DNA of 64,000 nucleotides, from assembly GCA_001244265.2 (NCBI GenBank), contig CDLV01000011.1, positions 930,001 to 994,000 of the forward strand, read 5' to 3'. This document shows positions 5,901-63,693 of this stretch, in pieces (positions within the stretch are counted from its first letter, which is position 1; every line of letters starts with the position of its first letter). A program made the position numbers and the translations under genes. This stretch comes from Microbotryum violaceum. Lineage: Eukaryota. The notes beneath the pieces were generated by a model, which worked only from the letters and a program-made list of their open reading frames with translations, searched no databases and was not told where the DNA came from.

Positions 5901-8172
5901 ACCTCGCGGACGAGTTCGTTTCGACTGGAATCCCGCAGTTGATTCGGAGTGCGCCGGATCTGGGGCCTTTGCTGGAGGAGGTTGAGGCGATGTATGACGG
6001 GGACGAGTTACTGCCTGTTGAAGGCAAGGACGAGCAGTATGAGGTGAGTGGGTAGCCTGGGCACGGTCTAAAGCTGGTTACTGATGTTTCTGGCCATCTT
6101 TCCGCAGGTTGTTCGGCGCAAGGTCGAGCAGATCGAGGAACAGCTGGATGAGCAGTTGGAGAAAGCCAAGAAGGATTTACGGTGAGTCGAGGGCCCATCT
6201 CGATGGCGCAAACTTCCTCAGCTGCTGAGCCGAATTTACACCCTCTCGTCTGCAACAGCTGCCCCGCAATTATCTACCGCGATATTGGCACCAAGGATAT
6301 CTTCCAGGTCATTGATCACTTTTCGTCCGTGTCGTCGAAAAAAACAAAGACACGAGTGCTGATCTGTGGTCCCTGCCTTTGCTGTGATTCCAGATCCAGA
6401 TTCCGGTCAAGATCAAAGCACCTTCCAATTGGACCAAGATGTCTAGCACCAAAGTGAGCCCGAGCTCAGTTACAGCCAATGTGAGCCTGCGCTGAGCAAA
6501 ACGTGTATCTTCCTCGCCTCTCAGGATGTGGATCGTTACTGGTCGCCCGAAGTGACGCGTTTGGTGACCAAGCTCAAGGAGGCGCGTGAGCGCAAGCAAA
6601 CTGTCGTCAACGAGTTTCTCTTGCGCGTCTACGCTGCCTTTGACCGCGACTATTCAACGTTCTTACAAGTCGTCAAGACAGTCGCCGAGCTCGACTGTCT
6701 GTTGAGTCTGTCCAAGAGTTCGGCGGCGCTCGGTGAGCCCGCGGTCCGACCAGAGATCGTGGCCAATTCGGATCGCGCTGTGCTCGAGTTCGAGGAGCTG
6801 CGCCATCCTTGCGTACTCAAGTGAGTTGATTCACTGCGATGGGTTCTTTATATCGCTTTTGTTCATGTACTCATTCGAGCTTTGTGCAGTGCTTCGGTCG
6901 ATTTCATCCCCAACGACGTTGCTCTTGGTGGTGACGCCGAGCAGCTCATCTTACTTACGGGTCCCAATGTGAGAATCCTAGCCCACGGGACTGTTTTGAT
7001 TGAAGCTTACAAGGTTTCTTGATCTTCCCAGATGGCGGGTAAAAGCACACTATTGCGCATGACCTGTGCCGCCATCATCATGGCTCAACGTGCGTGTGAA
7101 GGGCACCACAGTGGAAACCCCCGTCCCAATCTGACTGACTGTCCATCTTCGCACAGTTGGCTGCTTCGTACCGGCTGCCAAAGCGCTCATCGCCCCTGTC
7201 GACGCCATCTACTCTCGAATGGGTGCCAACGACTTTATCTTTGCGAACGCATCAACGTTCAAGGTCGAAATGGACGACTGTAACAAGATCCTAACCAAGG
7301 CGACACCTCGATCGCTCGTCATTCTCGATGAGCTTGGACGCGGTACCAGCACGTATGATGGGATGGCGATTGCCTACTCGGTCTTGCATCGCTTGGCGAC
7401 CCATGTCGGTTGCGTCGGCTTCTTTGCTACCCATTTCACGTCGCTGACTGAGGACTTTGAGGTGAGTGGAAGACAACGACATCTTCAATCACCACAGGTG
7501 ATGGCCGCTGACAAAATTGTCCTCTCTGGATCACAGTACCATCCTCAGTGAGTCTCACTGCATTGCCGAGTATGTTCTTGTACGACAGTTCGCTGACCGC
7601 CAACTGGCTGCTCAGAATTCGACTGTGCAACATGAGCACTCAGGTCTCAAACGATACTCGAGCAGTAGTCTTCTTATACAAACTGGTGAGCTCAGGTGAA
7701 AATTTACATCTGTTCGTTGTGCTAGAACCTGACACCAGACTTGGGTGACTGTAGATCAACGGCTCGGCGCCAAAGTCGTACGGACCGCATGTGGCGGCGA
7801 TGGCGGGTATGCCCGAGTGAGTTGTCTGCTCTATCATTGTACAACTGGATCAACTGGAACACTTCACTAACCTCGAAACCTTTTGAGGATGTGTTCAGCT
7901 CGCTCGTTCAACGCGCGATCGACATCTCGCGTCAATTCGAGACAACCTCCCGAGCGCGCGAGCGCAAGATGCGCGCCAACGAGTCCCTGCCGCTAACGCT
8001 CCAAGCTGATGCAGCGTTCCTCATAAAGCTAGCTCAACTCGGCCTGGACTCATACGAAGGTGACAAGTCGCAGTTGGTTCGCACGTTCAAAACGATCAAG
8101 CAGGGTATCGATCTCGTGCACCGGAAACCTCGCGCGGCATCTCCATCGTCGTCCGCACCCACGGCTCCCTGA
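2979..8172 (+). CDS. MSH6: Mismatch repair protein MSH6, multi-exon
   Basis: N-terminal PIP box QASLFSFF, YDPRTLRIP, FFQKGKFFEL(Y), spliced GPNMAGKST, ILDELGRGTST, FATHF. Confidence 0.96.
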
Positions 8173-21990: not shown

Positions 21991-23735
21991 ATCAAGTAAA
22001 CCCAGCAGCGAATCGCGCGCCTCCTGCAGACATACACCCCTTGTTTCTCGCTTTTGGACCTCCTCTCGCGAGCATCCGTCTCCTCATCACCAAGCCTATA
22101 CTCTCATAAATCCGACCTCGGCTAGTCTGACCCCTATCCTCTAGGGTCTTTCTTCGCTGGACATGACATCATCACCCTATATCGCATTTGGTTTTTACAC
22201 ATCGTTTCCCACATCGTACATCGTTTCTTCCAAAAACGCCATAGCATAGTAAACACATACGCATGTCTTCATCTCTTGCAAGTAGTACCTTTGCCACTTT
22301 TGTGGAACGGATTCTTCCGCATTTTCTTTCTTACAAGATATGTGCAACCACAATCATCATTTTGTACTAGACCCCCTTTCGAAGCCCTATAATAATCATC
22401 CGGCGCTATTGTCGCTCGCCGAGCGTCAAGTTGTGTTGGCCAAGGCCAAGTAATATCACGAGCCGTGCTCTACTGAACGACGCCCGTGCCGATTTTTCTT
22501 GATGGAGCTGAATAGGGACATATGATTATCACCTTCTGCACTGGTTTTGAGGGCAACTTTCCCCCACGACACGGCCCCACGAAGAAATCGGCGAGACGAG
22601 CGAAAGCAAGGGGAGGCAAAGTTTGTTGAATTGCATTCTGCCTATCCTTCGAACACTTCGACTCGGACCGCCGTTTGACGGACTCGCCAGGACCCATGAA
22701 AGCCCAGCCTGAGGCGCATAGGTAAAATCCGGGAAAATCGCCGAATTTGGACCTCATTTGTCCACCATTTTTTGGAATTTTGGCCCCAAAATGTCCCCAA
22801 AATGTCCAGTCCATCTACGCGCCTCAAAAAAATAGCTCTAGAATTGCTTCAAATACTCTAAAACATCTTTCAAAATCGCGAAAACGCCGTCCGGACGTTT
22901 TTCGCTCGGGCCGAATCGGCGGAGCCCGCGCGCGCGTCAGCCGTTTCGGTTCTGCTTCGCCGAGGGCTCCCCACCTGCACTTACTGCCTGCCTCTTTGCC
23001 TATGATTTAACGTGGCCATAGTATACATGTAACGAACCACGAGAGGTAAGATCGATTGCAGTCACTCTGCGAAGCAGTAAGCTAGCTACAGTGAGATCTA
23101 CGAACCCCCAGGTTCATTGAGGGGGGTAATTGCTCCTCAACGAGCAGTGACGGCATCACTTCCAGAGCTCTAACGAAGGGACGTTGATCTTCGATGCCGA
23201 CACGCGGATAACTTCACCAACTCGTGGCTACTGAGAACAACCGAACGCATGCGCTCAGCGTGATGCATATGCCGCCAGATTCGACGTCGAAAGGCAGCCG
23301 ATAATGATAGACGGGTGGCCTTGCCTACGTGCCGCAAGGATTGCTCCACGATCTTCAACTTGTCCCTCAAAGCATCGAGCGGCCTAGCAAGGGATTCAAA
23401 CTCGAGAGGCTCGTCTGTCGACCATGAAAGCTGTTTAAGCTGAATCCGGGTGCATTGGCTGGTTTGTCAAAGCTGGAGGCGAAAAGCTCAGACACCCTCA
23501 CGTCCAAGAGGGGTGCCATTCGCTCAAAATCATCGTCAAAGAGATCGATATCCGGACCTCTACGTTTCGTCAAAGCAAGCCGTGCCTAGAATGTAGGATA
23601 TTGGCGATGATGGCACAGACGACGTCGACGCGACGTGGCGGGGAAGGCAAGAGACGCGCGCACTCAAACGTTCAAATTTTCAAACGCTTCGTTCAACTAG
23701 CCAAGAGGTTATAATTCATGAAAACCGAAGGTTAA

Positions 23736-29007
<5,272 letters not shown>

Positions 29008-30270
29008 TAAAACCTACGGGCCTAGGACCCCACCCACACCGGCGCACCATGATTTGTCCACCCCCGACTACGCGCGTTAGCGATTTTAGTCCATCTGAGG
29101 CCCCAAATTTGTCCAGTCGGGCGCTACGCGCCTCAGGCCGGGCTTTCGGGGGTCTTGACTCGCCCGCCTTTCGCCTCGGCGCCTTCGCTTCGCAGCCTAG
29201 CTCGGCGCCTTCGCCTCCGCGAGCACTCACCGCGCACCCCTGTCTCCCGAGCCTTGCTGCATGATCCTTGCACCTCGCCTCGTCCCTCGACCTATGTGCA
29301 CCGTTCGTCAACTCGTCCACATCATGGTCCGTCAGCCCGACCATTGCCTGCCCTGCTCCGCATGCCTTTGCCTCGGCGCTCCCACCTTGGCGCTTTCACC
29401 TCGGCGCCTTCGCCTCGCCCCCTGTTCCTCGAGCCGCACTACATGACATTGTGCCTAGCCTCGTCCCTTGACCCATGTGTGCCGCTCGTCAACTCGCCCA
29501 CATACTGGTCCGTCTTCCCGGCCGTTGCCTGCCTTGCTCAGCACGACTCTGCCGATTTTCGCCTCGCTGCTTTTCGCCTTCGCAGCCAAGTCGCCCCCTT
29601 GTCCACGCCAGCCTGTTCAACTCACGCTCGCGCGCCGCTCCCTCCACGTCGGGACTTAGTCAATCTACCTCTACAGCCTTACCGAGCCGATGCCTCCGCC
29701 TCGCTACAGCCAGTTTGCCGCCTCCGACCTCATGAACCTCCGGCCATGCAGATCATCGCCCCTTCATGACGTACGTTGCTTGCCACCTGGACCTCGCCGT
29801 TACGGATCGCCTCCTCCAACAACACTGGACCTTGTAAATAAGTATCTCCTCGTGTCTGTCGTCCAACACGGCACCTCTCAGAGCCCTGATGGCCGCCCAC
29901 TTGGAGTTTGGTCCTTGAAGCTTCGCAACGTGCCTGCCCAGTTTGCCTTAGAACCTCTGTGCAGGACCCCCGAGAGCCCAGCCGGAGGCGCGTGACTGGA
30001 CAAATTTTGGGCCTCAGATGGGCCAAAACCGCCAAGGCGCGTAGTCGGGGGTGGACAAATCAGGGTGCGCCGGTGCGGGTGGGGGCCTAGGCCCGTAGGT
30101 GCTAGTGGACAAATCTCGGCCGATTTCAGCTACATTCGGCTTGGTGCGGCAAAGTTTGCCGACCCTCAAGAGCGTGCGGGAGCGCGCGCGAAACACTCTG
30201 GGCTATACCGAATCAAGAACAACGGCTCTAATTGTTCAATATTTGCAATGTAACCTCTTGGCTGGTTGAA

Positions 30271-31714
30271 CAAAAAGTCCAAGGCCTTGACCATTGCTCG
30301 GATACGCTCGATTCCGATGTACGATCTCCCATATGCAGCCAAGTGTTCGATCGTCAACATCTACTGCTACACAAAGATCTTGTACTACAGCTGATTCCTT
30401 CCCGCCCCCAAGAGCGTTGTCAAGGAGATCGAGGAGGCCGCCATGCTCGCCATTCACGGTCGAGCTTCGGATGGTACTCAGCAACGTCCGAAGGTCTCCC
30501 GGTCGCGCCTCTGCACCCCTCTTGATCACGGCGGCTTCGGTTTGATTGATCTGCCTCGGCGTCTTGCAATTGATCACGCGAAGTGGGTCTTCCAACTCCG
30601 GGCCCCGGACAGCTGCTTCACACGCCACCTCTTTGACATCCGCATCCGCCTCCAGGCACCAAACGAACCAACCCCTTTCACCTTGTCCAGACCGGCCCCC
30701 AACCAGCATCGTTGCTCTTGGATTTGGATCTGGTGGGCATACTTTTGCCATCCTCCCCAAAGTGGGACCATGTGGTGAGAAAAACGACAAAACTTCTTCC
30801 TGCTCGTTGGGTCCGATACTTCGAAGCCTGGGCGTTGGTGACCACGCTCAATCCCCCGGAACTCTCCAAGAGCCAGAACCTAGAGCAATGGGCGATGCAC
30901 GTACTCTATTTCCCAGCGGGCCACGGAACACAACTCTTGGTAAACCCGACGCTTTTTCGAGGGCCCGATGGCGAGGTGATGACCCCGTCTTCGTTTGTGA
31001 ACGCGTCCAAACGCCACCAAGTCTTCATCTTCCCCCTATCTTCCCCAAGGGACACCAAAAGGTATTCGGTCTGCCTGAGCAATGCTGGAACGCTTGGTGG
31101 AAGGCTTTGCGCAAGGTTCGCCGGGTTCACTCGGACGCCGAGGATACCGGCCACCTTCTCTCCCTGGGGTCCCTCCATCCGGGAAGCCAAGTCGCCTCCC
31201 CAACCAGCCCACATCCCAACAATCGATCTACCCCCTGTGTGATGTGCCTCTCGGAAGCACCCGAGTGCCTGGTTCACCTCGCGGTCGGCTGCCCATTTGC
31301 CCGGCGCCTCTGGTCTGCTCTGTCCCCGACCCCCACCCAGTCTTTGTGGACTTTGTATGCCCGGTCGTGTCTCGCTCGGAACGTCGACTTGTCGAACTAC
31401 GAGTCCTCTTCTTTCACTCGATCTGGAAGCTGTGTTGCCGTCGTCAATTCTCGTCGGATCTTTTGGAACCGATCACCGAAACGGAATTCGAGGGGCTTTG
31501 AGCCTCTATCCAGGAATCCAAGGGTCGCCTAGTGTCTCTGTAAGACACCAAAGGGGGTTTTAGTGGGTATGGTTGATCCTGGTTCAGGGTCAATGAGTCT
31601 TACACTACTGGCTTCTGCCAGTGTGCATAACAGCATTCCCTCCGACTTTTCCGAAGATTTCTAGGTATCAATATAATTATGCTGTTAATGAAGTCTATCA
31701 AATAAATAAATAAA
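30271..31714 (+). mobile_element. 5'-truncated non-LTR retrotransposon (L1/Tx1-like LINE 3' end)
   Basis: GGFGLIDL motif, zf-RVT-like CVMC...ECLVHLAVGCPFARRLW, frameshifts, (TAAA)n tail; interrupts homology to copy 1. Confidence 0.88.
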
Positions 31715-31817
31715 CCGAGTGCGCACGTCTCTTGCCTCCCCACCGCGTCGCGTCGTCTGTGCCATCATCGTCATCAACATCCTAGGCTAGGCTCTCGCTT
31801 CAGCCAACTTCGACGAG

Positions 31818-34800
31818 ATGTATCTAGGCAATCCGGATATCGAGCTCCTTGACGATGATTTCGAGCGAATGGCACCCCTCTTGGGCGTGAGGGTGTCTGA
31901 GCTTCTCGCCTTCCGCTTCGACAACCCGGAGACCTAAATACAGCTTGCGTGGTCGACAGACGAGCTTCTCGAGTTTGATACTCTTCCTAGGCCGTTCGAT
32001 GCTTGGAGGGACAAGTTCAAGGATCGTGGAGCAATCATTGCGGCACGAAATCAAGGTTACCGGTCTATCGCCATCGCTGGGCACCGGCTGCCTTTCGGTG
32101 TCGAAAGGATTTGGCGGCATATAGACTACGCTGAGCGCATGCGTTCGATCATTATCAGTAGCGATGAAAATTTATCTGGGTGTCAACATCGAAGATCAGC
32201 CTCTCATCGTCAAGGCTCTGGAGGTGCTGCCGTCATTAATCGTTGAGGAGCAATATACTCCCTCAATGATCCTCGGGTGTAGCGCGTCCTTGCGCACGCT
32301 GCTCGATTTCGTCGGTAAGTAGCCATTTTGTTTGCTTGTTCGATGGCGTGATTGACTGGGACTATTCTTCGTGCTTTTCCTAGGGACAACGTGGCTTGGA
32401 GAAACCGCGATGGACGTTGCCACCGCCAGCGTACTAGCTTCATCGCGAGTAGAAGCGTCGACAGCACCTGACAAGGTATACGGGGCATTCCCATCCCACC
32501 TCATGGCGATTTTGGTCGCGTCAAAAAAACATCACCCTGACTCTCCTCAACGTGATGTTCTCGACAAATACACCTTCACATCACCACTTGTTCCCTATCG
32601 AACTTTCAATCACAGCACGACGATCCAGACTAGCCAAGGAGCATCTTAAAGACATCGAATACTCGAAGGCTCGCCCCGCAGCATTTGCTGAATTCAAGGC
32701 GAAGGTCAAGCAGCTCTGCCCAGGTTCGGACGTGAAGATTGCAAATCCCAGGACGGTACAGTGGGGTCGCTGTCGTACATATCACAAGATGAAGACACGG
32801 CACGGCGTCACCCGCTTCATGAGGCATATTAATCAAAACCCGCCGTGCACAAACATGCGCAAGATCGACCACTACTTTGCTGTTCGACCGCCCGCGGAAA
32901 CGGCTGTCCGGTCGCAAAGGCAAAACCCTGGAAGATTCTCCCCCGTGTCCCGGCCTGACAGGCAAGCGGGTAGAGCGATACCTCTCAAAGATCTCTGCTC
33001 GAGGCGGAGGTGCACCATCTCGGCTAAAGCTCATCAAGAGAAGGTTCCCAAGACTTGGCAAACGTGTGCTGACTCCCTCCGAACGCCGTGAGATCAATAA
33101 TCTGGAAGCGAACGAGTGGAAGTGGGTGAACGATCATTCAGCACCTCGAGTGAACAATATCGAATGTACCAAGATCGGAGTGGAGTCTCAATGTGGAACA
33201 AAATCGCAGCCTTGCGCCAAATGCAAGGCACTGCTTCGCACGAAAGCCTTTCCACCGGCGTTATATCGGCCTCGGGCTGTCGGACCCACAATCAAGTTCA
33301 CGAATAAACGATTGGCTTCCGTCGACGCTCTGATGTCAAAGGTTTTCAAGGAACACCAAGGTCTGGAGGAACTCTTGGGGACCAAGGATGGCAAGATCTA
33401 TCATCGTTACGCCCAAGGTTTAATTGTCGGCGAGCTTGCTGGAGCAAATATTCTGAAAGGTATGGCAAAAGTTGCCGTGATTAAGCATAGGCGAAACGCA
33501 CAAGGCAAGGACATGAGAGGCTATGTGCGAGACGAAGCTTTGCTCGACTTTGAACACGCGCTGGCTCTGGCATCTCCCACGGCCTTGCGCGTGGTGCAAA
33601 AAACAATTGGAGGAATCTCGATGCGCACACTTCAGTAAGTTTCAGACCTGAGCTATCCGTCACTCCTTCAAGCTACTGACAATTACAAACCTCTCAGACA
33701 ACACCGAGCCACATTTGAAAAGCCCAGGTTCGGCTTAGATGAGCCCCACATGCAGCGCGTTGTCCAAAAGATCCTTTCGGATGGAAAGACCTTCAACCTG
33801 CATGTCGACGACACGAAACTGCGACAAGTAATCAGGACAACACGGATTTATTCGAAGGACAAGGAGGCGGAAGCTCGCCTGCGCGGCCAGAAAATCTTTC
33901 GTCACGAGCTCATTGGCATGGTTGGCCCGCCAATCGTGTATGAAACCACGCGGGAGCTCGAGGGTATCTTTCGGGGACCGAACCCTCCGATCGCTGGCAC
34001 CAAGGTCGGCGACTATGTCTGCGCGGCGCTTTGATTAGTTGCTCATTTGCTGGCGCTTCTGTGAATAGGTTCGAGTGTACATGCTTGCACCAAACGATGT
34101 CTCTTGCCCAGCCCAATACCTTGCCGCATTCGTGATTGGCGACTCGACGAGCTCATCCGAGGCTGCGGATGATTTGGAATCAGTTATTCAATTCCTCGTC
34201 AACGCTGAGCTAGGTCATCTTCTTGCCTGCATCTCAGCGGATGGGGCGGCAAGCGAAGGCGTCTTGCAGCGCGTCATGGCAAAGCGACTTGGCGGCGATG
34301 AGGGGTATACCGGAGAGGGGAACCGTCGGCGAGAGCTCGCACATGTCATTCCATCTCCAGGTCCCGACAAAGTCTTCCCAGCCATTCGACTGGCATCCGT
34401 TCAAGTGGGCAACACTCCAACGTGCCTCAATCGGGACGAAAAGCATCTGAGCAAAAATCTCCGCAGCGCGTGCGATTCAGGCGCCAGGGCAATATACGGC
34501 GGCACCGGATGCATCGGATATCGTGACCTGTTGACGCTGCTCGACGTCGAAGAGTCGGCAAGGACCTTGTATCTACGCGATGTGATTGGACGTGATCGTC
34601 AAGATGACAATGCGACGCATCGAGCGTTCTCCGAAGCTACTCTCTCGCTTGCTTGCCGACTTCACGAGGACGGCAAAGTCGATGCCGATGCCATCGTCTT
34701 CCTCTTTCTCTGCGGCGAGCTTCATGACGCGATACAAAATAGGTCATTGCAGCCGATTGAACGTATCAAGATGCTATTAACGGTTCGTTATACGTTTGAG

Positions 34801-36680
34801 GGCTGGTTGACCTTCGAGCGCAATCGTCCCGGGTACAACGCGCAGTCCTTTGTAGCCAAGGAGACCCTAGATGGTATGCGAAAGGTCGTCGATACGAACA
34901 TCGCCCTTATTCGGAACTACCGCGACTTTTGGCCGGAAGAAGCGTTCATACCTTGGCGACATGGTACGGAGATGGTCGAGCATTTTTTAGGCGGTTTGCG
35001 CAAAGTCGTGCAAGAGTTTGATGATTTAGAATTCCTGCACATCACACGTATGACAGGCTCGACGATCTCGACCTCGTCGCAATGCGGACTTATCCAAACG
35101 ATGAAGAGATTCAATCCACAAGCTTGGTTGCTGCAGGACTTGCAAAAGAGCTCCTTCTTGGTCTTCGAATGTGGGATACCATACATTATCAGAAGTCCAA
35201 CCAGGTAGAGGAAGAGATACCGGTCAATGGTGGGTGTCGCAAGCTTGTGGCTTCGTTTTGAGCAAAGCTGATTGATGCCGCCCCTTACAGCTAGTGAACC
35301 TTGGCATTTCGAGCCCGAGGACACTGAGCCGGTTTCGTACCTCGCTGACCTAGATCGGACCCTCAATGGGATCCGAACCAAAACGTGCCAAGGTCTCGTC
35401 GTGCTGGACCCGAAAGAGCGAAAGTCAGTTGAAAATGCTGTTCGCTCTTTAGCTGCTCTTGGCCTTGACAATGATGCTGCACTGTAAGTTGAGTGCTTGA
35501 GACCTGTACCCGCCTCATCCGAGCTGATGATACGTCTCTTTCAATTCTAGGCTTGCCGTTCAGCAGGCCTATGATAAGGCCGATGCTCAAGCAGAGGAAC
35601 GCTTTCTACTCGACGCCATTGAGACAGCAAATGAAAGCTTGCCAGGTCGTGTAGGTTCATTTAAGCAGCAACTGTCTTCTTGCAGAACCACTAAACAGAA
35701 CCAGCACTCTTTCACAGGCTCAAATTCTTCGGCTCCCATCCCTTCTGCGTCACGACACTCGTCAGCTTGCGCTTGATCTGAAAAGCTTGACTGAGCACCG
35801 TCGGGCCCATCAATGTGCCCACCTCAAGGGAAAGCACGGCGCCCCCACCTCGACTGCCCAAGATTTCGATCCCACATCAAAAGCGCAATTGTCCAAGCAC
35901 GGTGAAGTGCACTCCAGTGTCCTCCGAGGCTTAGTGCAATCAATGGGTGCAGCCCGTCTCGAAGCTGTGTCAGGAGTTGCGAGGTCCATTCGTTGGACAG
36001 GACAAGGGACCTTCAGTCGCTTTTCGACCGCAAACGAGACAAACAACATAGGATACATCGAAGACGGACGTAAAGAAGTGAGCTACAATCGTGTGCTGTG
36101 CACATATCGCCCAGAGAGTGCTCATCAATAATGTTCATTCTTGCCCAGGTACGGATGCAATTGCGAGCAAGGCAATACACGGTATTCGCCAAGATCCCAA
36201 CGTTTGGGTCGATTGACGGAAACGTCACGTCAGCCATGCCTTTGAAAATCGGCTCTTTTGTCTGCTTCGGATTGAAACGAGGCATCATACCTGTCAGTTG
36301 TGACGCCAGCAACATAGGAGAAGACCAATTGTCCATTGGACTTGGTTTGTGCATCTCACTATAGCTAGCTTACTGCTTTGCAGAGTGACTGACTTCGATT
36401 TTACCTCTCGTAGTACGTTACATGTATGCCAAGGCCACGTCAAATCATTGTGACAGAGCGGAGACCGACTCCCTCGCGTTACTCTCGAAGTCGTCCTCCA
36501 AGAATTACGAGTTGTGAGCAAGGGCCGTTATTCAACGCATATGATTGACGGCACGACTCGCTTCTTTGGACTCGATGCTCGACATATTATTCAATCCTTG
36601 GAATCATCCTCAACGCCCGCCCTCACTCTCGCACCCTAGGATTCAGTTGCATACCTCGGGGAGCGTGTCTTCGACTTAAG
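31818..36680 (+). pseudogene. Spliced DDE transposase, P-element/THAP9-like, with stops and frameshifts (ends approximate)
   Basis: LHVDDTKLR (~33800), CISADGA (~34230), DEKHLSKNLR DxxH motif (~34435), DRQDD, TEMVEHFLGGLR (~34970); Cys/His clusters upstream; lies between TIRs. Confidence 0.7.
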
Positions 36681-38579
36681 CCAGCAGGCTGAGGCCAGGT
36701 TCTGTTTTCTTCGACGCTACAACGGATTACGGGACGCTTCTGTGTCCTTGAGTAATCAAATGAAGGGCGTGAAAGATGTAGGGTCAAAAAGGAAGGCAGC
36801 AAGTGCAGATGAGGAGCCCTCGGCGAAGCAGAACCGAACCGGCTGACACGCGCGCGGGCTCCGCCGATTCGGCCCGAGCGAAAAACGTCCGGACGGCGTT
36901 TTCGCGATTTTTGGAGATGTTTTAGAGCATTTGAAGCAATTCTAGAGCTATTTTTCGAGGCGCGTAGATGGACTGGACATTTTGGGGACCTTTTTGGCCG
37001 AAAATTCCAAAAAATAGTGGACAAATGAGGTCCAAATTCGGCGATTTTCCCGGATTTTACCTACGCGCCTCAGGCTGGGCTTTCATGGGTCCTCTCTGTG
37101 CGCGCCCTTGCTAGAACCTTGTCAGACTCGCGCGCTCTCGCGCCTCTCTCCCTCTTCTCTATCGTTTCACCTCACCATTCAGACTGCTGAGATTCGTTAG
37201 AGAACAGATCGCTCGGCTGCGCCGCGGCCGTCCCTCCAGGCCGCGTCCTCACCGCCTCACGACTTCTCCACCGGGGAGTACTTTGCTTCGCCATCCTGCC
37301 TCGCAACCCCCGAAACGATCTGGTCCGTGCCGCCTCACGATTCTCCAGCGACCCCCCGGTCCCAACTTAATAAAGTTCGGGAGGCGGGCGGGAAAGCGAG
37401 ATTCTCAAAGTCCGGAGCGAGAAACAGGCCATGTTGCAAGCGAAAGTAGTCAATTCAAGCAATCAGGAGTGATTCACACCGCACTCGCCTTTCGAGGTCG
37501 CCTTTGGCAACTGGCCAATCTCCAAGAGCGACCTTGAGCCCCACATGATGGGCTGCCCGAGCATCGGCAAAGCCTGCTCCATCTTTTCGACCTACTCAGC
37601 TCTTAGGCCATGGTGACCATGAGGCGCGGTCGATACATCGGCAAAGAACTACTCTCATCTCTATCCTCCATAAAACTCTTGCCTAACATCCTGATCTCTG
37701 TCCACTCTCGATCATTACACACATGCCCGCCCGAGCCGAAACTACCACTTCCATTTCCCAAGTCGATTCGCATCAACTACATCAACCCCCAACGCAGGCT
37801 CTTTCACGGCTTATAAAATATATTACCTTACTGCGGCTTCCATTGCAGCGAGTGTCACTTATGTAGTAGATCTCCTTCAGTAACCCTTGGCCCTGGGCCG
37901 GACCTTGCCCGTCCCCGAGTCGACCCCTAACGATAAACAAAGCGCGCCGGTGCTCATTGGCCGACACGTCGAAGGCGAAGGGATTTCGGCGCCCATCATC
38001 ATAAAATGCCCTGCAGCACCTGAATTTCATCAAGGTCATTGTAAACGAGACAAGGGAAACTCGACCGCTTTGATGAGTGATGCAAGGGTTTTGTCCTGAT
38101 CTGAGGACAAAGGGCAAGTCTCGGGCGAGGAGTTGGATCAAGTCGATGAGAGTGATCAAAGTGGGGAGAATGACCAAAGGAAGCCTAGGCGCTTCGTTCT
38201 TGATCTCGCGGGGTCGTACAGATTGAGTACGTGTTTTGCGCCTGACCTTTGAGCATGATCTTCCACAAGTAGCTGCGGTGGGTACCGCGAGCCGAGTGCG
38301 GTGAGCGAGTTTATGCTTGAGCTTTCAGAAATCGATAGCGAATACAAGATCACAAGCCTTCTTCACTGTGATTGCTATTGAGATGCTGATACAACAGGTG
38401 TTTACCTCTCTCGCCGTAATGTACAAGCTATTCTTCTCTGTCATGATTGCCGATGCAATCAAGCACTTTGTGGCTTACATCTCATCACCACTCGTGATTG
38501 AACGTGTCCGGTGCCATCGAGGTCATCCACCTGTTTCAATATGAAGCAGGGCCAGTCAGTGCCGGATGATCGACATGGT

Positions 38580-46436: not shown

Positions 46437-46826
46437 ACCCCCCACCCAGTCTTTGTGGACTTTGTATGCCCGGTCGTGTCTCGCTCGGAACGTCGACTTG
46501 TCGAACTACGAGTCCTCTTCTTTCACTCGATCTGGAAGCTGTGTCCCCGTCGTCAATTCTCGTCGGATCTTTTGGAACCGATCACCGAAACGGAGTTCGA
46601 GGGGCTTTGAGCCTCTATCCAGGAGTCCAAGGGTCGCCTAGTGTCTCTGTAAGGCACCAAAGGGGTTTTAGTGGGTATGGTTGATCCTGGTTCAGGGTCA
46701 ATGAGTCCTACACTACTGGCTTCTGTCAGTGTGCGTAACAGCATTCCCTCCGACTTTTCCGAAGATTTCTAGGTATTAATATAATTATGCTGTTAATGAA
46801 GTCTATCAAATAAAAAAATAAAAAAA
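46437..46826 (+). mobile_element. Short 3' fragment of the same LINE family as 30271-31714
   Basis: Near-identical to ~31329-31714, ends in an A-rich tail. Confidence 0.9.
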
Positions 46827-49747
46827 CAGCGCACGAGCCTACTCGGGCTGCTGAGCGCTGAGCGCTGAGCGGCAGTGAGCGGCAGTGAGCGGCTGGCAGC
46901 AACCCCGTTGCTGCACCTCGGGCAGACATAAAAAAATACGTCTTAACAGGCGCGCGCGCAGCGCCCCCTCACGCGCCTTCCAAGTCACTGCCCCAGCGGG
47001 GTGCAGCCTTGCTACCCCAGGGCTCCGACTTGGCCCACTTGAGGTATGCCCACCTCGATGTCGAGCTACCGAGACGTTCACTCCCACTAGTATCACTCGG
47101 TGGAAAACCTGGAAACAAAGGCACAGTCGGCGAATAATAGTGCATTCGGATTTTTGCATATTTTCTGAGAGTTACTATTGTCCTCTGCAAGCTGAACAAG
47201 AGCTCTACCTCGAACACGTGATTCGGCACGGGTCGCGCGGAACAATTGGGGCCGGGACTGGCCGGGATGTCGACGCGTCATGACTCCGGAGACGCTCCCA
47301 TTCTTCTGCTTTAATTTGCCCAATCGCCCCCTACGACGTATACGAAGTAATAACGAACTATACAATGAGCATCCGTCACCTTGCGACAGTCTGAAATGAG
47401 CGCCCGCTTCGAAACACCGGATCAATCGTACTTCTGCTGCTCCTACCATGATGAGTCAATCCAATCAACTTAACCACCTCCCGAACCGCAGCCAACGTTT
47501 GGCGCTCCGGCGATGAACAGCAGTATGTTTGCCGCCGATCGACACGGGTGCTCTGCCTGGACTACCGGCTCACAATCACATCTGACACGTAGGTTCATAT
47601 GCTGCCTCTAGGTACGAGTCGCGCACCTTGCCTTGGACTTCCTATCCGTCCGCATATAACGACTGTTCGGGTCCGTGGGTGGCCGTCGCGTCGATCGCGT
47701 ACAGCATCGGTCTGTTCTGACGTTACACCGTCGTGCACCCGATCCAGCGTCCACTTTCGCTGGCGTAACGGCCATCTCGAATCCTGTGTCGTACAACTAT
47801 CAATCGTCGCCGGGATCTGCTTCGTCCAACCAACCAGTTTACCGTCCCAACGTTCCCCGATCCTGGACGCATCGATGGCCCGTATCTAGCTCCGCCAGCA
47901 AGCATCAATCTCGCAAGCATCGCAAGCATGGTCGAACAAGGAGGGACCAATCCTGGCGGCACGGGTGACGCGGCAGGTTTGCCAAATACTGCACCTTCCG
48001 CTCGCGATCGTCAAAAGTTGCGGGCCGCACAAGTTTCCCAAGACGAGGAGGGAGGCCGCGCATCAGGAGGGAGGGATGTATCAGCGAATGTCTGCGCACA
48101 GCTTGGAACGCACCCGTGGCCGACAAGAAACGTTGAGACCAAATGCCAATGATACGACATCATCCTCAAGGAACTGTTCCGTGAGTACAAGAAGTGCAGC
48201 CTGCCTACTCTTCCATACAAGGTGCCTAATTTTGACCCGGCTCGCTGTCTTCAGAGTCCGCGCTACGCCAACGCTCCGTGCTGGACGGCGAGAAGATCCA
48301 ATCGCCCAAGTTCGTCTATGACGTAAAGGCCCTCAGGGACAACGCCAGAATCATTGTTCAGCGCGGCGCTCTCCTTCGCAAAGCGGATTTCCGAAGCCCG
48401 AGTAGCAAGCTCAAGTTGTTGGGACGACCTGGATCGGATCATCCCATTGCTGCGTGCAGGCGAGCTGAGCTTCAGGCTGGAGGAAGAGGTAATCGGGTCA
48501 AGTGCAGACCAGGCAATGGCCGACGGCGATGAAGGCGGCGACAGCGATGCTGACCGGCGGACTCGGAACACGAGCTCCGACGAGTACAGCGAGTGAGGTG
48601 ACGATGGCCGAGCTTTCAGCGCCAGCCGGACTCGTCGACGCGCATGCGATGCGGAAATCTTGGCTGTTGAAGGGCCAGAATTCGTTGGACAACACAGGCC
48701 ACCACAATTGTTCTTTGATATTTTGCTTCATATGCATCCGGCTCTTGGGGCTCTTGGTGACTAAAGGCGGAGAGGGTTATTGTTCGTTGGCCCTTCGTGC
48801 CTAATCTTCCCCTGGGCCGCTCGAGACCGACCTCTCCTTGTTGACGTGGGATGTGCCAGTGACGTAATCCTGCTCACAAACATCATCCTTCTTGTTCTGT
48901 TTTGTTTCCGAAGTATTGTGTAGAGTTGAATTGCCCTGTGAGAATGGAGTGCTCCCTGATCCGTGGTCCAGACGGAGCGTCTGCTTTCCGGAAGTGACTC
49001 TTTGAGCAAAGAATGAATGAACAGAATTCGCAGCGCGATTCCACAAATTGCAGTGTATGTTAGCATCTTTTTATAATCTATTAGCACTAAAGTGAACGGC
49101 AAGGGTTGCATCTGGCCGGACTCGGTCTTCGCCAAAGTGCCAATCAGAGCTGCTGGGCCACGGTGACGACCGCTGGCCGGCTGACTTCAAGCGGCGCGCG
49201 CTCCCAGAAGAAGGCGAACTGATCTGAGCCCCTGAACGCGCAAGCGGAGCGGAACACGTAGGTAATCAGTCGTATGTTGCCAAGTAGCGACAAAGTACGT
49301 GCTTGATGAGAGGTGGGTCGAACTTGATAATAGGTTCGGTGAAAACATGGAAGGCTTAGGCTTGTAACAGGCTCTTGGAGCGAGAACCTCAATTGACTCC
49401 GAGACATGATCGATGGCCGCTCATACCTACCTCTTACTTGATAAACACTCCTTCTCATCAATGAAGTAGGCTGCCAATCCTCAGGCCCCACGGTGAGTGC
49501 TCAAACTTGAAGCAGAGAGAATTCTTGCATTCGCCGCACTAAAATGAATTGTCAGCACTTTTGCCCCCGTCAAGCATAAACTAAACTAGATCTTGAGATC
49601 TTGACACCAAGCTCTTCTTAAAACAGGCGCAAGTCTCAGTAGCAGGGATCGGGATCGGTGCAAAGGGTCTTTTGCCGCGCCATGGCAGGAAGTCGAATCC
49701 TTCGATCGGGAATCCTCATAGAGAGAGAGCCGCCCAGCCATACGCAC

Positions 49748-63449: not shown

Positions 63450-63693
63450 TTGGTTTGGGCTTGGGGCGAATTCCCTCACGACACCGCCCCGCGAAGAAAC
63501 CGGCGGGCAGCGCAAACAAGGGAGGGAAACCGGGGAGGCGGGCGGGAAAGCAAAACATTATGGAGTTTTGAGTGAGCAACAGGCGATGTTGCGAGCAAGA
63601 ATAGTTGGTTCTAGCAAGAGGGAGTGATTCACACCGCACTCGCCTTTCGACTCGCTCGGCGCGCCCGTTGGTCGCCTTTGGCAACCGGCCAGG
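63450..63693 (+). repeat. Dispersed ~240-bp repeat; a second copy is split between ~22540-22617 and ~37379-37517
   Basis: Identical 30-mer GGAGTGATTCACACCGCACTCGCCTTTCGA at 37466-37495 and 63621-63650 with collinear flanking similarity. Confidence 0.75.

What the first reader, a model, noticed from the sequence alone, without database searches (positions are those of the whole stretch)
29963..37093. Fungal P-element-like transposon with defined ends, 8-bp TSD and a spliced transposase
Seen: 31-bp imperfect TIRs starting AGGACCC, perfect 8-bp TSD CTCTGTGC, and a multi-exon ORF with ordered motifs VDDTK / SADG / DEKHLSKNLR / EMVEHFLG. Established: P/THAP9 transposases use D..D..DxxH..E in this order and make 8-bp TSDs; hAT also makes 8-bp TSDs but usually starts CAG/TAG. 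Inference: this is a P-superfamily-related element with atypical AGG termini, a group poorly described in fungi and likely annotated as hypothetical protein. I cannot confirm novelty without a search.
Basis: partly seen in the sequence, partly recalled or inferred. Interest (0 to 1): 0.8.

Follow-up and report, generated by a model that had tools for sequence, protein, structure and literature searches.

The report
Decayed P-like transposon in anther-smut fungus
This is a broken copy of a cut-and-paste DNA transposon whose enzyme folds like the fruit-fly P element transposase, from a large and mostly unannotated family in basidiomycete fungi, where P-type elements were thought to be rare.

Summary
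A 7,131-bp element (29963-37093) has 31-bp imperfect terminal inverted repeats (27/31) and a perfect 8-bp target duplication, CTCTGTGC. A second copy in the window (22689-29156, other strand) has the same ends and its own perfect 8-bp duplication, GACTCGCC. Contigs from four public runs join the flanks of the first copy across a single 8-mer, which is an empty paralogous site.

The gene is MVLG_06469, a "hypothetical protein" of Microbotryum lychnidis-dioicae. Its predicted core matches the Drosophila P element transposase far better than anything else: Z 28.2 against 10.6 or less for Tn5, Hermes, RAG1 and Transib. The match covers the helix-turn-helix, the split RNase H domain and the helical insertion domain. 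The D, D, D(2)H and E motifs are conserved across the family, which counts 517 clusters at 50% identity. All 23 named representatives are Basidiomycota.

Full-length relatives carry an N-terminal Ulp1 protease and a Cys-rich module, and no THAP domain was detected. The window copy is dead. It has a nested LINE fragment, an in-frame stop, a deleted Ulp1 catalytic part and a frameshifting deletion.

P elements with 8-bp duplications are already in Repbase for rust fungi, so this is a variant of a known kind. I could not check whether it belongs to those Repbase families.

The parts
29955..29962 (.). Left copy of the 8-bp target site duplication, CTCTGTGC
   Evidence: Read directly. It is identical to 37094-37101. 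A single related 8-mer sits at the empty paralogous site.
29963..29993 (+). Left 31-bp terminal inverted repeat, starting AGGACCC
   Evidence: pair I3.
29994..30278 (+). Left subterminal region with three exact TGGACAAAT words (29997, 30052, 30106). These are candidate transposase binding sites (inferred).
   Evidence: all 7 exact matches in the window lie in the subterminal regions of the two copies. The region is conserved in copy 2.
30279..31714 (+). Nested 5'-truncated non-LTR retrotransposon fragment, not part of the original element
   Evidence: It ends in an A-rich tail. A 96% identical 398-bp sister lies at 46439-46835. It is absent from copy 2. Contigs of X1, X2 and X8 join 30278 to 31715. 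There is a weak zf-RVT hit, E 0.031.
31836..32153 (+). Remnant of the family's N-terminal domain, broken by an in-frame TAA at 31935
   Evidence: tblastn of P0005, P0006, P0007 and P0160 gives 39-41% identity, E about 1e-17. The translation shows the stop.
32392..32660 (+). Remnant just upstream of the Ulp1 domain, and the breakpoint where the Ulp1 catalytic part is missing
   Evidence: P0005 residues 201-267 map to 32392-32607 and residues 483-554 map to 32660-32878. The stretch in between, which holds the Pfam C48 hit at 280-385, has no match.
32606..33635 (+). Cys-rich module and start of the helix-turn-helix. Two exons: 32606-32905 and 32928-33635. Includes PPCPGL 32940-32957 and PCAKCKALL 33210-33236.
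   Evidence: tblastn of P0002, family conservation and the model with mean pLDDT 81.6. Residues 208-271 of the ORF match the P transposase HTH, chain residues 135-193, at Z 4.5.
33333..36514 (+). Public gene model MVLG_06469 (P0001, 862 aa, 9 exon pieces)
33699..35039 (+). RNase H-like catalytic core with its helical insertion domain. D138/D139 at 33807-33812, D261 at 34240-34242, D326xxH329 at 34435-34446, E504 at 34969-34971.
   Evidence: Motif coordinates, conservation, fold.
35039..35040 (+). Deletion that shifts the frame from 1 to 3. About 27 codons present in relatives are missing.
   Evidence: tblastn of P0002, P0020 and P0022. Contigs of X1 and X2 carry extra letters here, and an X8 loose end encodes the missing stretch. 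The model has pLDDT below 50 at residues 534-588.
35040..36843 (+). C-terminal exons of the transposase gene, as guided by P0002
   Evidence: GT..AG joints at 35483/35551, 35650/35718, 36077/36149 and 36343/36413 appear in run X15 only.
36971..37062 (+). Right subterminal region with one exact TGGACAAAT (37018), in the same orientation as those at the left end
   Evidence: (D5, D16).
37063..37093 (-). Right 31-bp terminal inverted repeat
37094..37101 (.). Right copy of the target site duplication, CTCTGTGC
22681..29164 (-). Second copy of the family with its 8-bp duplication GACTCGCC (22681-22688 and 29157-29164). It is an internally deleted derivative of about 1.39 kb (22689-23837 plus 28915-29156), split by a 5.08-kb Ty3/gypsy retrotransposon at 23838-28914.
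   Evidence: blastn, sequence, Pfam on the insert.

Best explanation
The feature is a defective copy of a cut-and-paste DNA transposon of the P (P element/THAP9) superfamily in Microbotryum lychnidis-dioicae.

Shown here:
- 31-bp terminal inverted repeats.
- An 8-bp target duplication at two copies and one empty site.
- A multi-copy family with internally deleted derivatives.
- A spliced gene whose product is predicted to fold like the P element transposase, covering the helix-turn-helix, the split RNase H domain and the all-helical insertion domain between strand 5 and helix 4.

Inferred mechanism:
- An intact family transposase binds the ends. The subterminal TGGACAAAT words and the inner half of the repeats are likely contacts for the Cys-rich module and the HTH.
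- The transposase pairs the ends and cuts them with the acidic triad D138 or D139, D261 and E504.
- It inserts them into target DNA cut with an 8-bp stagger, which yields the duplication.

Family features. Intact relatives carry an N-terminal Ulp1-type cysteine protease with a conserved catalytic Gln/Asp/Cys stretch. Its role is unknown. My guess is that it removes SUMO from host or transposon proteins to help transposition or escape silencing.

State of the window copy. It cannot make this enzyme. It has a nested LINE fragment, a stop at 31935, a missing Ulp1 catalytic part and a frameshifting deletion at 35039/35040. It keeps both ends, so in principle it could still be moved in trans.
For: Ends and duplication.

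Second copy with its own perfect 8-bp repeat.

Four-end comparison. The four ends share a 31-bp consensus. The left ends share CCCCCGA and the right ends share CCCATGA, so the left/right asymmetry is inherited.

Laid contigs:
- In X1, X2, X8 and X15, one contig each joins 29956 to 37100 with TTGC between. That gives one 8-mer, CTTTGCGC, where the window has element plus two CTCTGTGC.
- Contigs join 32402 to 35390 in all 4 runs (internally deleted copies).
- Contigs join 30278 to 31715 in 3 of 4 runs (copies without the LINE).
- GT..AG joints at annotated intron positions appear in X15 only.

Fold:
- VIA-align, 6p5a_A: Z 28.2, rmsd 3.4, 396 of 442 residues, model 37-536 against chain 134-564. 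Next are Tn5 10.6, Hermes 10.1, RAG1 10.0, Transib 9.9.
- Foldseek: 6pe2_A and 6p5a_A at E 2e-14 with target TM 0.72. Next is Hermes at 1.2e-4 with TM 0.27.
- The ESM Atlas's nearest named clusters carry the TNP-like RNaseH_N, GBD and RNaseH_C families, or are THAP9.

Sequence:
- PF12017 (P transposase HTH) hits 6 of 42 family proteins just upstream of the core. One (P0039, 25.9 bits) is above the curated cut-off of 23.
- PF21787 hits 1 of 42, weakly.
- D138/D139, D261, D326, H329 and E504 are invariant or at least 90% conserved.
- In the model, D326xxH329 sits at the end of a strand where the helical domain starts, and E504 sits on the next core helix. This matches the published layout of D339 (the D(2)H motif), the 339-528 insertion and E531 in the fly enzyme (PMC8230255 and PMC7776569, passages).
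Against: - Sequence profiles did not reach the P transposase in the PDB. phmmer of P0002 and two family profiles found only Ulp1-type proteases or noise.
- None of the 42 proteins scanned reached the curated cut-offs of PF21787, PF21788 or PF21789.
- No THAP domain was reported at E <= 0.05 in any of the 42.
- The termini start AGG, not the CA.. of P elements (the latter is recalled, not tested).
- The fold evidence rests on predicted models. I could not inspect a residue-level superposition, so the catalytic assignment is by motif, order and secondary structure only.
- GTP binding could not be assessed.
- Only two copies and one empty site were available for the duplication length, because no genome was held.
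- The filled left junction is present in all four runs laid, so there is no sign of recent movement of this copy.
Confidence: 0.88

Rival explanations
1. It belongs to a separate, sister superfamily that shares ancestry and fold with P but is not a member of P in the taxonomic sense. The Ulp1 fusion, the Cys-rich DNA-binding module and the AGG termini would be its own hallmarks.
For: Sequence similarity to P/THAP9 is below the reach of HMMER profiles and mostly below Pfam cut-offs. No THAP was detected. The termini differ. The family is large and self-contained in Basidiomycota.
Against: The match to the fly enzyme spans the HTH, RNase H and insertion domains at Z 28.2, about 18 units above every other transposase. 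The D(2)H signature and the 8-bp duplication are those of P. One member passes the curated cut-off of the P-specific HTH family.
Confidence: 0.2
2. It is a hAT element. hAT elements also make 8-bp duplications.
For: The 8-bp duplication. Hermes appears among the fold matches.
Against: Hermes scores Z 10.1 with rmsd 7.4, against 28.2 with rmsd 3.4 for P. Foldseek gives 1.2e-4 with TM 0.27, against 2e-14 with TM 0.72. No hAT family was reported by Pfam in 11 window ORFs or 42 relatives.
Confidence: 0.02
3. It is a Zisupton/Dileera (KDZ) element. These are common in basidiomycetes and also give 8-bp duplications.
For: Zisupton and Zisupton-1_PGr make 8-bp duplications (PMC12730594, passages). The host range is basidiomycete. 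I recall that Zisupton encodes a SUMO protease, but I did not check this here.
Against: No KDZ transposase family was reported by Pfam at E <= 0.05 in any of the 42 relatives, whereas the P-type HTH was. The fold match to P covers three domains. No KDZ structure is solved, so the structural contrast is untested.
Confidence: 0.03
4. It is a host gene derived from a transposase (domesticated, like human THAP9) and not a mobile element.
For: It is annotated as a gene (MVLG_06469). Spliced RNA-like contigs exist in X15.
Against: It has inverted repeats, duplications, a second copy, internally deleted copies, an empty paralogous site and several inactivating lesions.
Confidence: 0.02

Closest known systems
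Drosophila P element and its transposase (PDB 6P5A/6PE2); vertebrate THAP9/Pdre
   Same: 8-bp target duplication and 31-bp inverted repeats (P element figures from PMC7776569). Internally deleted non-autonomous copies. A spliced transposase gene. The same predicted fold over the HTH, the split RNase H domain and the helical insertion domain. The D, D, D(2)H, E order.
   Different: No THAP finger was detected; a Cys-rich module with no PDB match stands before the HTH. Intact relatives have an N-terminal Ulp1 protease. Proteins run to 1400-2000 aa. The termini start AGGACCC. Identity to the fly enzyme is 14% in the structural alignment. GTP use is unknown.
Rust-fungus P elements in Repbase (P-1_PSt, P-1_MLP, P-2_MLP, P-N1_MLP, P-N2_MLP)
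   Same: They are P superfamily elements with 8-bp duplications in Pucciniomycotina, the subphylum of Microbotryum. They have autonomous and non-autonomous forms (PMC3164196, passages).
   Different: I could not see their sequences, so I do not know whether they have the Ulp1 domain, the AGG termini, or any closeness to this family. None of the 23 named representatives looked up here was a rust.
Zisupton/Dileera/Kyakuja (KDZ) transposons of basidiomycetes
   Same: 8-bp duplications for Zisupton (PMC12730594). Large multi-domain proteins in the same hosts.
   Different: The KDZ transposase domain was not detected, and the core is P-like by fold.
Plant MULE and CACTA elements that carry an Ulp1 protease (recalled, not checked here)
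   Same: A DNA transposon that carries a C48/Ulp1 protease domain.
   Different: A different transposase superfamily. There the protease is usually a separate or captured gene, whereas here it lies in the same predicted protein as the transposase in 26 of 42 models.

Membership tests
P superfamily (P element/THAP9-like DNA transposons) | 8-bp target site duplication | tested here: met
   There are perfect 8-bp repeats at two copies and one 8-mer at an empty paralogous site.
P superfamily (P element/THAP9-like DNA transposons) | Transposase with an RNase H fold split by an all-helical insertion domain between strand 5 and helix 4, preceded by an HTH | tested here: met
   The predicted model matches 6p5a_A at Z 28.2 with 396 residues aligned, model 37-536 against chain 134-564. 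Foldseek gives E 2e-14. This rests on a predicted structure.
P superfamily (P element/THAP9-like DNA transposons) | Acidic triad on strand 1, after strand 4 and on helix 4, plus the D(2)H signature | tested here: inconclusive
   The residues are conserved and lie on the expected elements. The signature is described in PMC8230255. No residue-level superposition could be inspected.
P superfamily (P element/THAP9-like DNA transposons) | Sequence membership in the Pfam P transposase families (PF12017, PF21787, PF21788, PF21789) | tested here: inconclusive
   PF12017 hits 6 of 42 proteins, 1 above the cut-off. PF21787 hits 1 of 42, weakly. PF21788 and PF21789 hit 0 of 42. The window ORFs gave 0 of 11.
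P superfamily (P element/THAP9-like DNA transposons) | N-terminal THAP zinc finger (typical of P and THAP9) | tested here: not met
   No THAP hit at E <= 0.05 in 42 relatives. A different Cys-rich module is present.
P superfamily (P element/THAP9-like DNA transposons) | Termini of the CA.. type (recalled from Yuan and Wessler 2011; not read here) | tested here: not met
   All four ends start AGGACCC or AAGACCC.
P superfamily (P element/THAP9-like DNA transposons) | GTP as cofactor, bound in the insertion domain | not testable with these tools
   The insertion domain is present by fold. Ligand contacts could not be examined.
hAT superfamily | hAT dimerisation domain and a Hermes-like core | tested here: not met
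   No hAT family was found. Hermes scores Z 10.1 against 28.2 for P.
KDZ (Kyakuja-Dileera-Zisupton) | KDZ transposase domain | tested here: not met
   It was not reported by Pfam at E <= 0.05 in 42 relatives. The 8-bp duplication alone is shared.
Kolobok | TTAA target duplication (recalled) | tested here: not met
   The duplications are the 8-bp words CTCTGTGC and GACTCGCC.
Ulp1/SENP (C48) protease domain, in the family but not in this copy | C48 fold signature with conserved catalytic residues | tested here: met
   The family profile hits yeast Ulp1 (1euv) at E 6.4e-18. PF02902 hits 26 of 42 proteins. Q, D and C are nearly invariant. In the window copy the catalytic part is absent.

The most novel reading that the evidence does not exclude
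This copy belongs to a so far unnamed lineage of P-superfamily transposons found across the basidiomycetes. In this lineage the THAP finger has been replaced by a Cys-rich module of no recognised fold, and the transposase is fused to a catalytically competent-looking Ulp1 deSUMOylase. If so, P-type elements are old and common in Dikarya rather than rare horizontal arrivals. The protease would be a transposon-borne tool, for instance against SUMO-dependent silencing or for processing the giant protein.
Probability: 0.45. Interest if true: 0.65.

Novelty: new variant of a known kind. Interest (0 to 1): 0.5.

Why it matters
A survey of fungal genomes lists P as "only Pucciniales & Allomyces" in Repbase. 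It found 11 transposase-bearing P copies and suggested horizontal arrival (PMC5751038, passages).

The family seen here has 517 clusters at 50% identity. It occurs in Microbotryomycetes, Tremellomycetes and many Agaricomycetes. Nearly all members are annotated "hypothetical" or only "ubiquitin-like protease".

If it is accepted as P-related:
- Genome annotation pipelines are missing a common fungal transposon type and are calling its relics genes.
- It offers a distant relative for asking whether the P element's unique GTP requirement is ancestral.
- It offers a natural fusion for testing what a SUMO protease does for a transposon.

Tried and rejected
- **Genome search.** Searching the window's own genome and laying it in the script box failed because none is held. 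The copy census is therefore limited to the window and to contigs of four runs.
- **Sequence searches against solved structures.** phmmer of P0002, the full family profile and a core-only profile never reached the P transposase. Only Ulp1-type proteases or noise appeared.
- **Capped protein searches.** A search with the alignment and lengths 'longer' looked only at 3503-5000 aa proteins and found nothing. The 'near' repeat returned 12 proteins: 10 named Microbotryum proteins plus 2 without an organism name.
- **Cys-rich module.** Fold searches gave no match above Z 5 or below E 1, apart from its C-terminal helices matching the P HTH. Residues 40-165 were barely tested by those lists, so I make no claim of a new fold.
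- **Earlier notes of this scan.** Nothing was held.
- **Literature.** The searches were Ulp1 + transposon + Agaricomycetes (0 papers), Peptidase_C48 + transposable + fungal (2 irrelevant), THAP9 + Basidiomycota (3 hold the terms, 2 listed, none relevant), Ulp1 + transposase + fungi + P element (3, none on fungi) and P-1_MLP (only the 2011 rust paper). The Zisupton/SUMO protease search returned only SUMO papers.
- **Published classification.** The superfamily breakdown of TIR elements in this species is a figure (Additional file 6) whose image is not held. Supplementary files 13-24 of that paper were not searched for the Wicker codes.
- **7-bp duplication with a CAGG terminus.** I considered and rejected this. 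The extra C would sit at the left end in one copy and at the right end in the other.
Full report
**1. The observation**

- The sequence reads ...CTCTGTGC|AGGACCCCCGAGAGCCC... at 29955-29979 and ...GGGCTTTCATGGGTCCT|CTCTGTGC at 37077-37101.
- The repeat finder reports arms 29963-29993 and 37063-37093, 31 nt, 87% complementary (I3). That is 27 of 31.
- The element is 7,131 bp long.
- The terminal word (17 letters, up to 2 mismatches) occurs four times in the window, against 0.14 expected. None of 100 shuffles reached four.

**2. A second copy and an empty site**

- blastn of the element against the window found a second set of ends on the other strand.
- Reading them shows GACTCGCC|AGGACCCATGAAAGCCC at 22681-22705 and ...GGGGGTCTT|GACTCGCC at 29148-29164. 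This is a second element, 22689-29156, with its own perfect 8-bp duplication.
- Without a 5,077-bp insert (23838-28914) it is about 1.39 kb. It keeps parts 1-282, 1755-2315, 6382-6486 and 6823-7131 of the long copy, so it is an internally deleted derivative.
- The insert encodes protease, reverse transcriptase, RNase H and integrase in Ty3/gypsy order.
- The four ends agree over 31 bp and then diverge into a left type and a right type, and both types are shared between the copies.
- All seven exact TGGACAAAT words of the window lie in the subterminal regions of these two copies. They have the same orientation relative to the element at both ends.

Contigs of four public runs (three organism labels, four studies, all coded) were laid on 28900-38500.
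- In each run one contig joins 29956 to 37100 with TTGC between. The flanks are thus continuous across a single 8-mer, CTTTGCGC, which differs at two positions from the duplicated CTCTGTGC.
- The same runs also hold the filled left junction without a mismatch (pieces 29609-29992 or 29609-30023).
- The empty form has about three times the depth of the unique right flank in X1 (82 against 27).
- I therefore read it as paralogous copies of a repeat into which the element inserted. It fixes the element boundaries and the 8-bp length independently.
- Other joints show copies without the nested LINE (30278 to 31715; X1, X2, X8) and internally deleted copies (32402 to 35390; all four).
- At 35039/35040 some copies carry letters that the window lacks.

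**3. The gene and its state**

- The largest ORF is 99% identical to [quoted passage not shown] (P0001, 862 aa).
- It is 93% identical to a 1,375-aa protein of M. silenes-dioicae (P0002).
- P0001 maps as nine exact pieces between 33333 and 36514.
- In the supplementary gene table of the genome paper it is autosomal, hypothetical and without a Pfam domain (PMC4469406, supplement 2).

Guided by relatives, the coding region starts further upstream, at about 31836. It is damaged in five ways:
- A 1,436-bp 5'-truncated non-LTR fragment sits at 30279-31714.
- An in-frame TAA lies at 31935.
- The stretch of relatives that holds the Ulp1 catalytic residues has no counterpart between 32607 and 32660.
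- A Cys of a conserved Cys motif reads Trp (QWGRC against QCGRC in P0002).
- About 27 codons are missing at 35039/35040, with a shift from frame 1 to frame 3.

The public model reads through the last lesion. Its residues 534-588 are the low-confidence part of the fold.

In X15 only, contigs skip 35483-35551, 35650-35718, 36077-36149 and 36343-36413 with GT..AG ends. The first three are annotated introns to within three bases. X15's kind is not on record, so I take this as a hint of spliced transcripts from some family member, not from this copy.

**4. What the protein is**

- Pfam finds nothing in 11 window ORFs beyond a weak zf-RVT hit in the LINE.
- An exhaustive HMMER search finds 517 clusters at E <= 0.001, 341 at <= 1e-10 and 52 at <= 1e-30. 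Most are 1,400-2,000 aa, and the shared core corresponds to P0001 residues 3-530.
- A 52-sequence alignment shows invariant or nearly invariant D138, D139, D261, D326, H329, K332, R335, N336, a DRQDD block, E504 and H508. A 30-sequence core alignment agrees.
- AlphaFold2 with that alignment gives mean pLDDT 73 and high confidence over about residues 30-530.
- Against about 48,000 PDB representatives, the Drosophila P element transposase (6p5a_A) scores Z 28.2, rmsd 3.4 A, 396 residues aligned, model 37-536 against chain 134-564. The next entries are Tn5 (10.6), Hermes (10.1), RAG1 (10.0) and Transib (9.9).
- Foldseek gives 2e-14 and target TM 0.72 for 6pe2_A/6p5a_A, then 1.2e-4 and TM 0.27 for Hermes.
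- The ESM Atlas's nearest named clusters are P transposase and THAP9 families.
- By sequence the link is faint but repeated. PF12017, the P-type HTH, is hit in 6 of 42 relatives just before the core, once above the curated cut-off. PF21787 is hit once, weakly.
- In the model, D138/D139 lie on the first core strand and D261 lies just after a strand. D326xxH329 sits where an all-helical domain (about 327-501) begins, and E504 sits on the following helix.
- That is the published layout of D230, D303, D339 (the D(2)H signature), the 339-528 insertion domain and E531 in the fly enzyme (PMC7776569 and PMC8230255, passages).
- I could not inspect the superposition residue by residue.

**5. What else the family carries**

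- The family profile hits yeast Ulp1 at E 6.4e-18 and many SENP proteases.
- PF02902 is reported in 26 of 42 relatives, N-terminal to the core. The Q, D and C of the catalytic stretch are nearly invariant.
- Between protease and HTH lies a conserved Cys-rich region (PCPGL..YL.RT..GGG, W.NDH..VFS..C, PC..C..LL).
- Folded alone it is confident (pLDDT 81.6). It has no match in the PDB above Z 5, except that its last helices match the P HTH.
- No THAP domain was reported.

**6. Distribution and prior knowledge**

- Of 30 representatives looked up, 23 carry names and all 23 are Basidiomycota. By my own knowledge of the genera, 21 are Agaricomycetes. One is Phenoliferia and one is Naganishia. Seven are unnamed.
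- Nearly all are "hypothetical" or "ubiquitin-like protease domain-containing". One UniRef name is "THAP9-like helix-turn-helix domain-containing protein".
- P-superfamily elements with 8-bp duplications were reported from Puccinia and Melampsora and deposited in Repbase in 2011, as "previously unknown in any Dikarya" (PMC3164196, passages).
- A 2017 survey lists fungal P as "only Pucciniales & Allomyces". It found 11 copies with a transposase and proposed horizontal origin (PMC5751038, passages).
- The Microbotryum genome and TE papers that I read in passages speak of TIR elements without naming P. The superfamily figure is not held.
- My searches of the held library found no paper on a P-like transposase with an Ulp1 domain in fungi.
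- Repbase and Dfam could not be searched, so I cannot say whether the rust entries belong to this lineage.

**7. Verdict**

- The locus is a dead copy of a P-related cut-and-paste transposon.
- The points of interest lie in the family rather than the copy: a large, basidiomycete-wide clade that standard domain models largely miss, with a protease fusion and a different DNA-binding head.
- I rate it a new variant of a known kind, of moderate interest.

Noticed in passing
window 23838-28914: A Ty3/gypsy LTR retrotransposon lies inside the second P-like copy. It has a 1,112-aa ORF with protease, RT, RNase H, integrase and SH3 domains. LTR-like direct repeats lie at about 23866-24027 and 28700-28905.
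   Followed up: partly
window 30279-31714 and 46439-46835: Two 5'-truncated copies of one non-LTR retrotransposon share a 96% identical 3' end and an A-rich tail. In run X15 the summed contig depth over this part is far above the rest.
   Followed up: partly
window 29157-29962 and 37102-37466: The DNA into which the long copy inserted is itself repeated. The empty form has about three times the depth of unique sequence, and several contigs end at 37466. The N-terminus of a related M. silenes-dioicae gene model (P0007) resembles 29690-29962 and then reads through a terminal repeat. This may mean a preferred target repeat, or gene models that start in flanking repeats.
   Followed up: partly
window 28915-30198: The two copies lie head to head. 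Their left ends face each other 806 bp apart, giving a 186-nt inverted repeat at 85% (I1). The spacer holds a 181-bp-period repeat, 29181-29372 and 29364-29553, at 75%.
   Followed up: no
window 29997-30114 and 37018-37026: The subterminal TGGACAAAT words have the same orientation at both ends of the element, direct rather than inverted. That is unusual if they are transposase binding sites.
   Followed up: no
window 32940-32957, and P0002: The window's ORF keeps the family's conserved PCPGL motif, which the M. silenes-dioicae gene model P0002 splices out. Public gene models of this family are therefore unreliable at exon level.
   Followed up: no
window 37379-37495 and 63533-63650: This is a 119-bp stretch, 79% identical between the two places, of unknown nature.
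   Followed up: no
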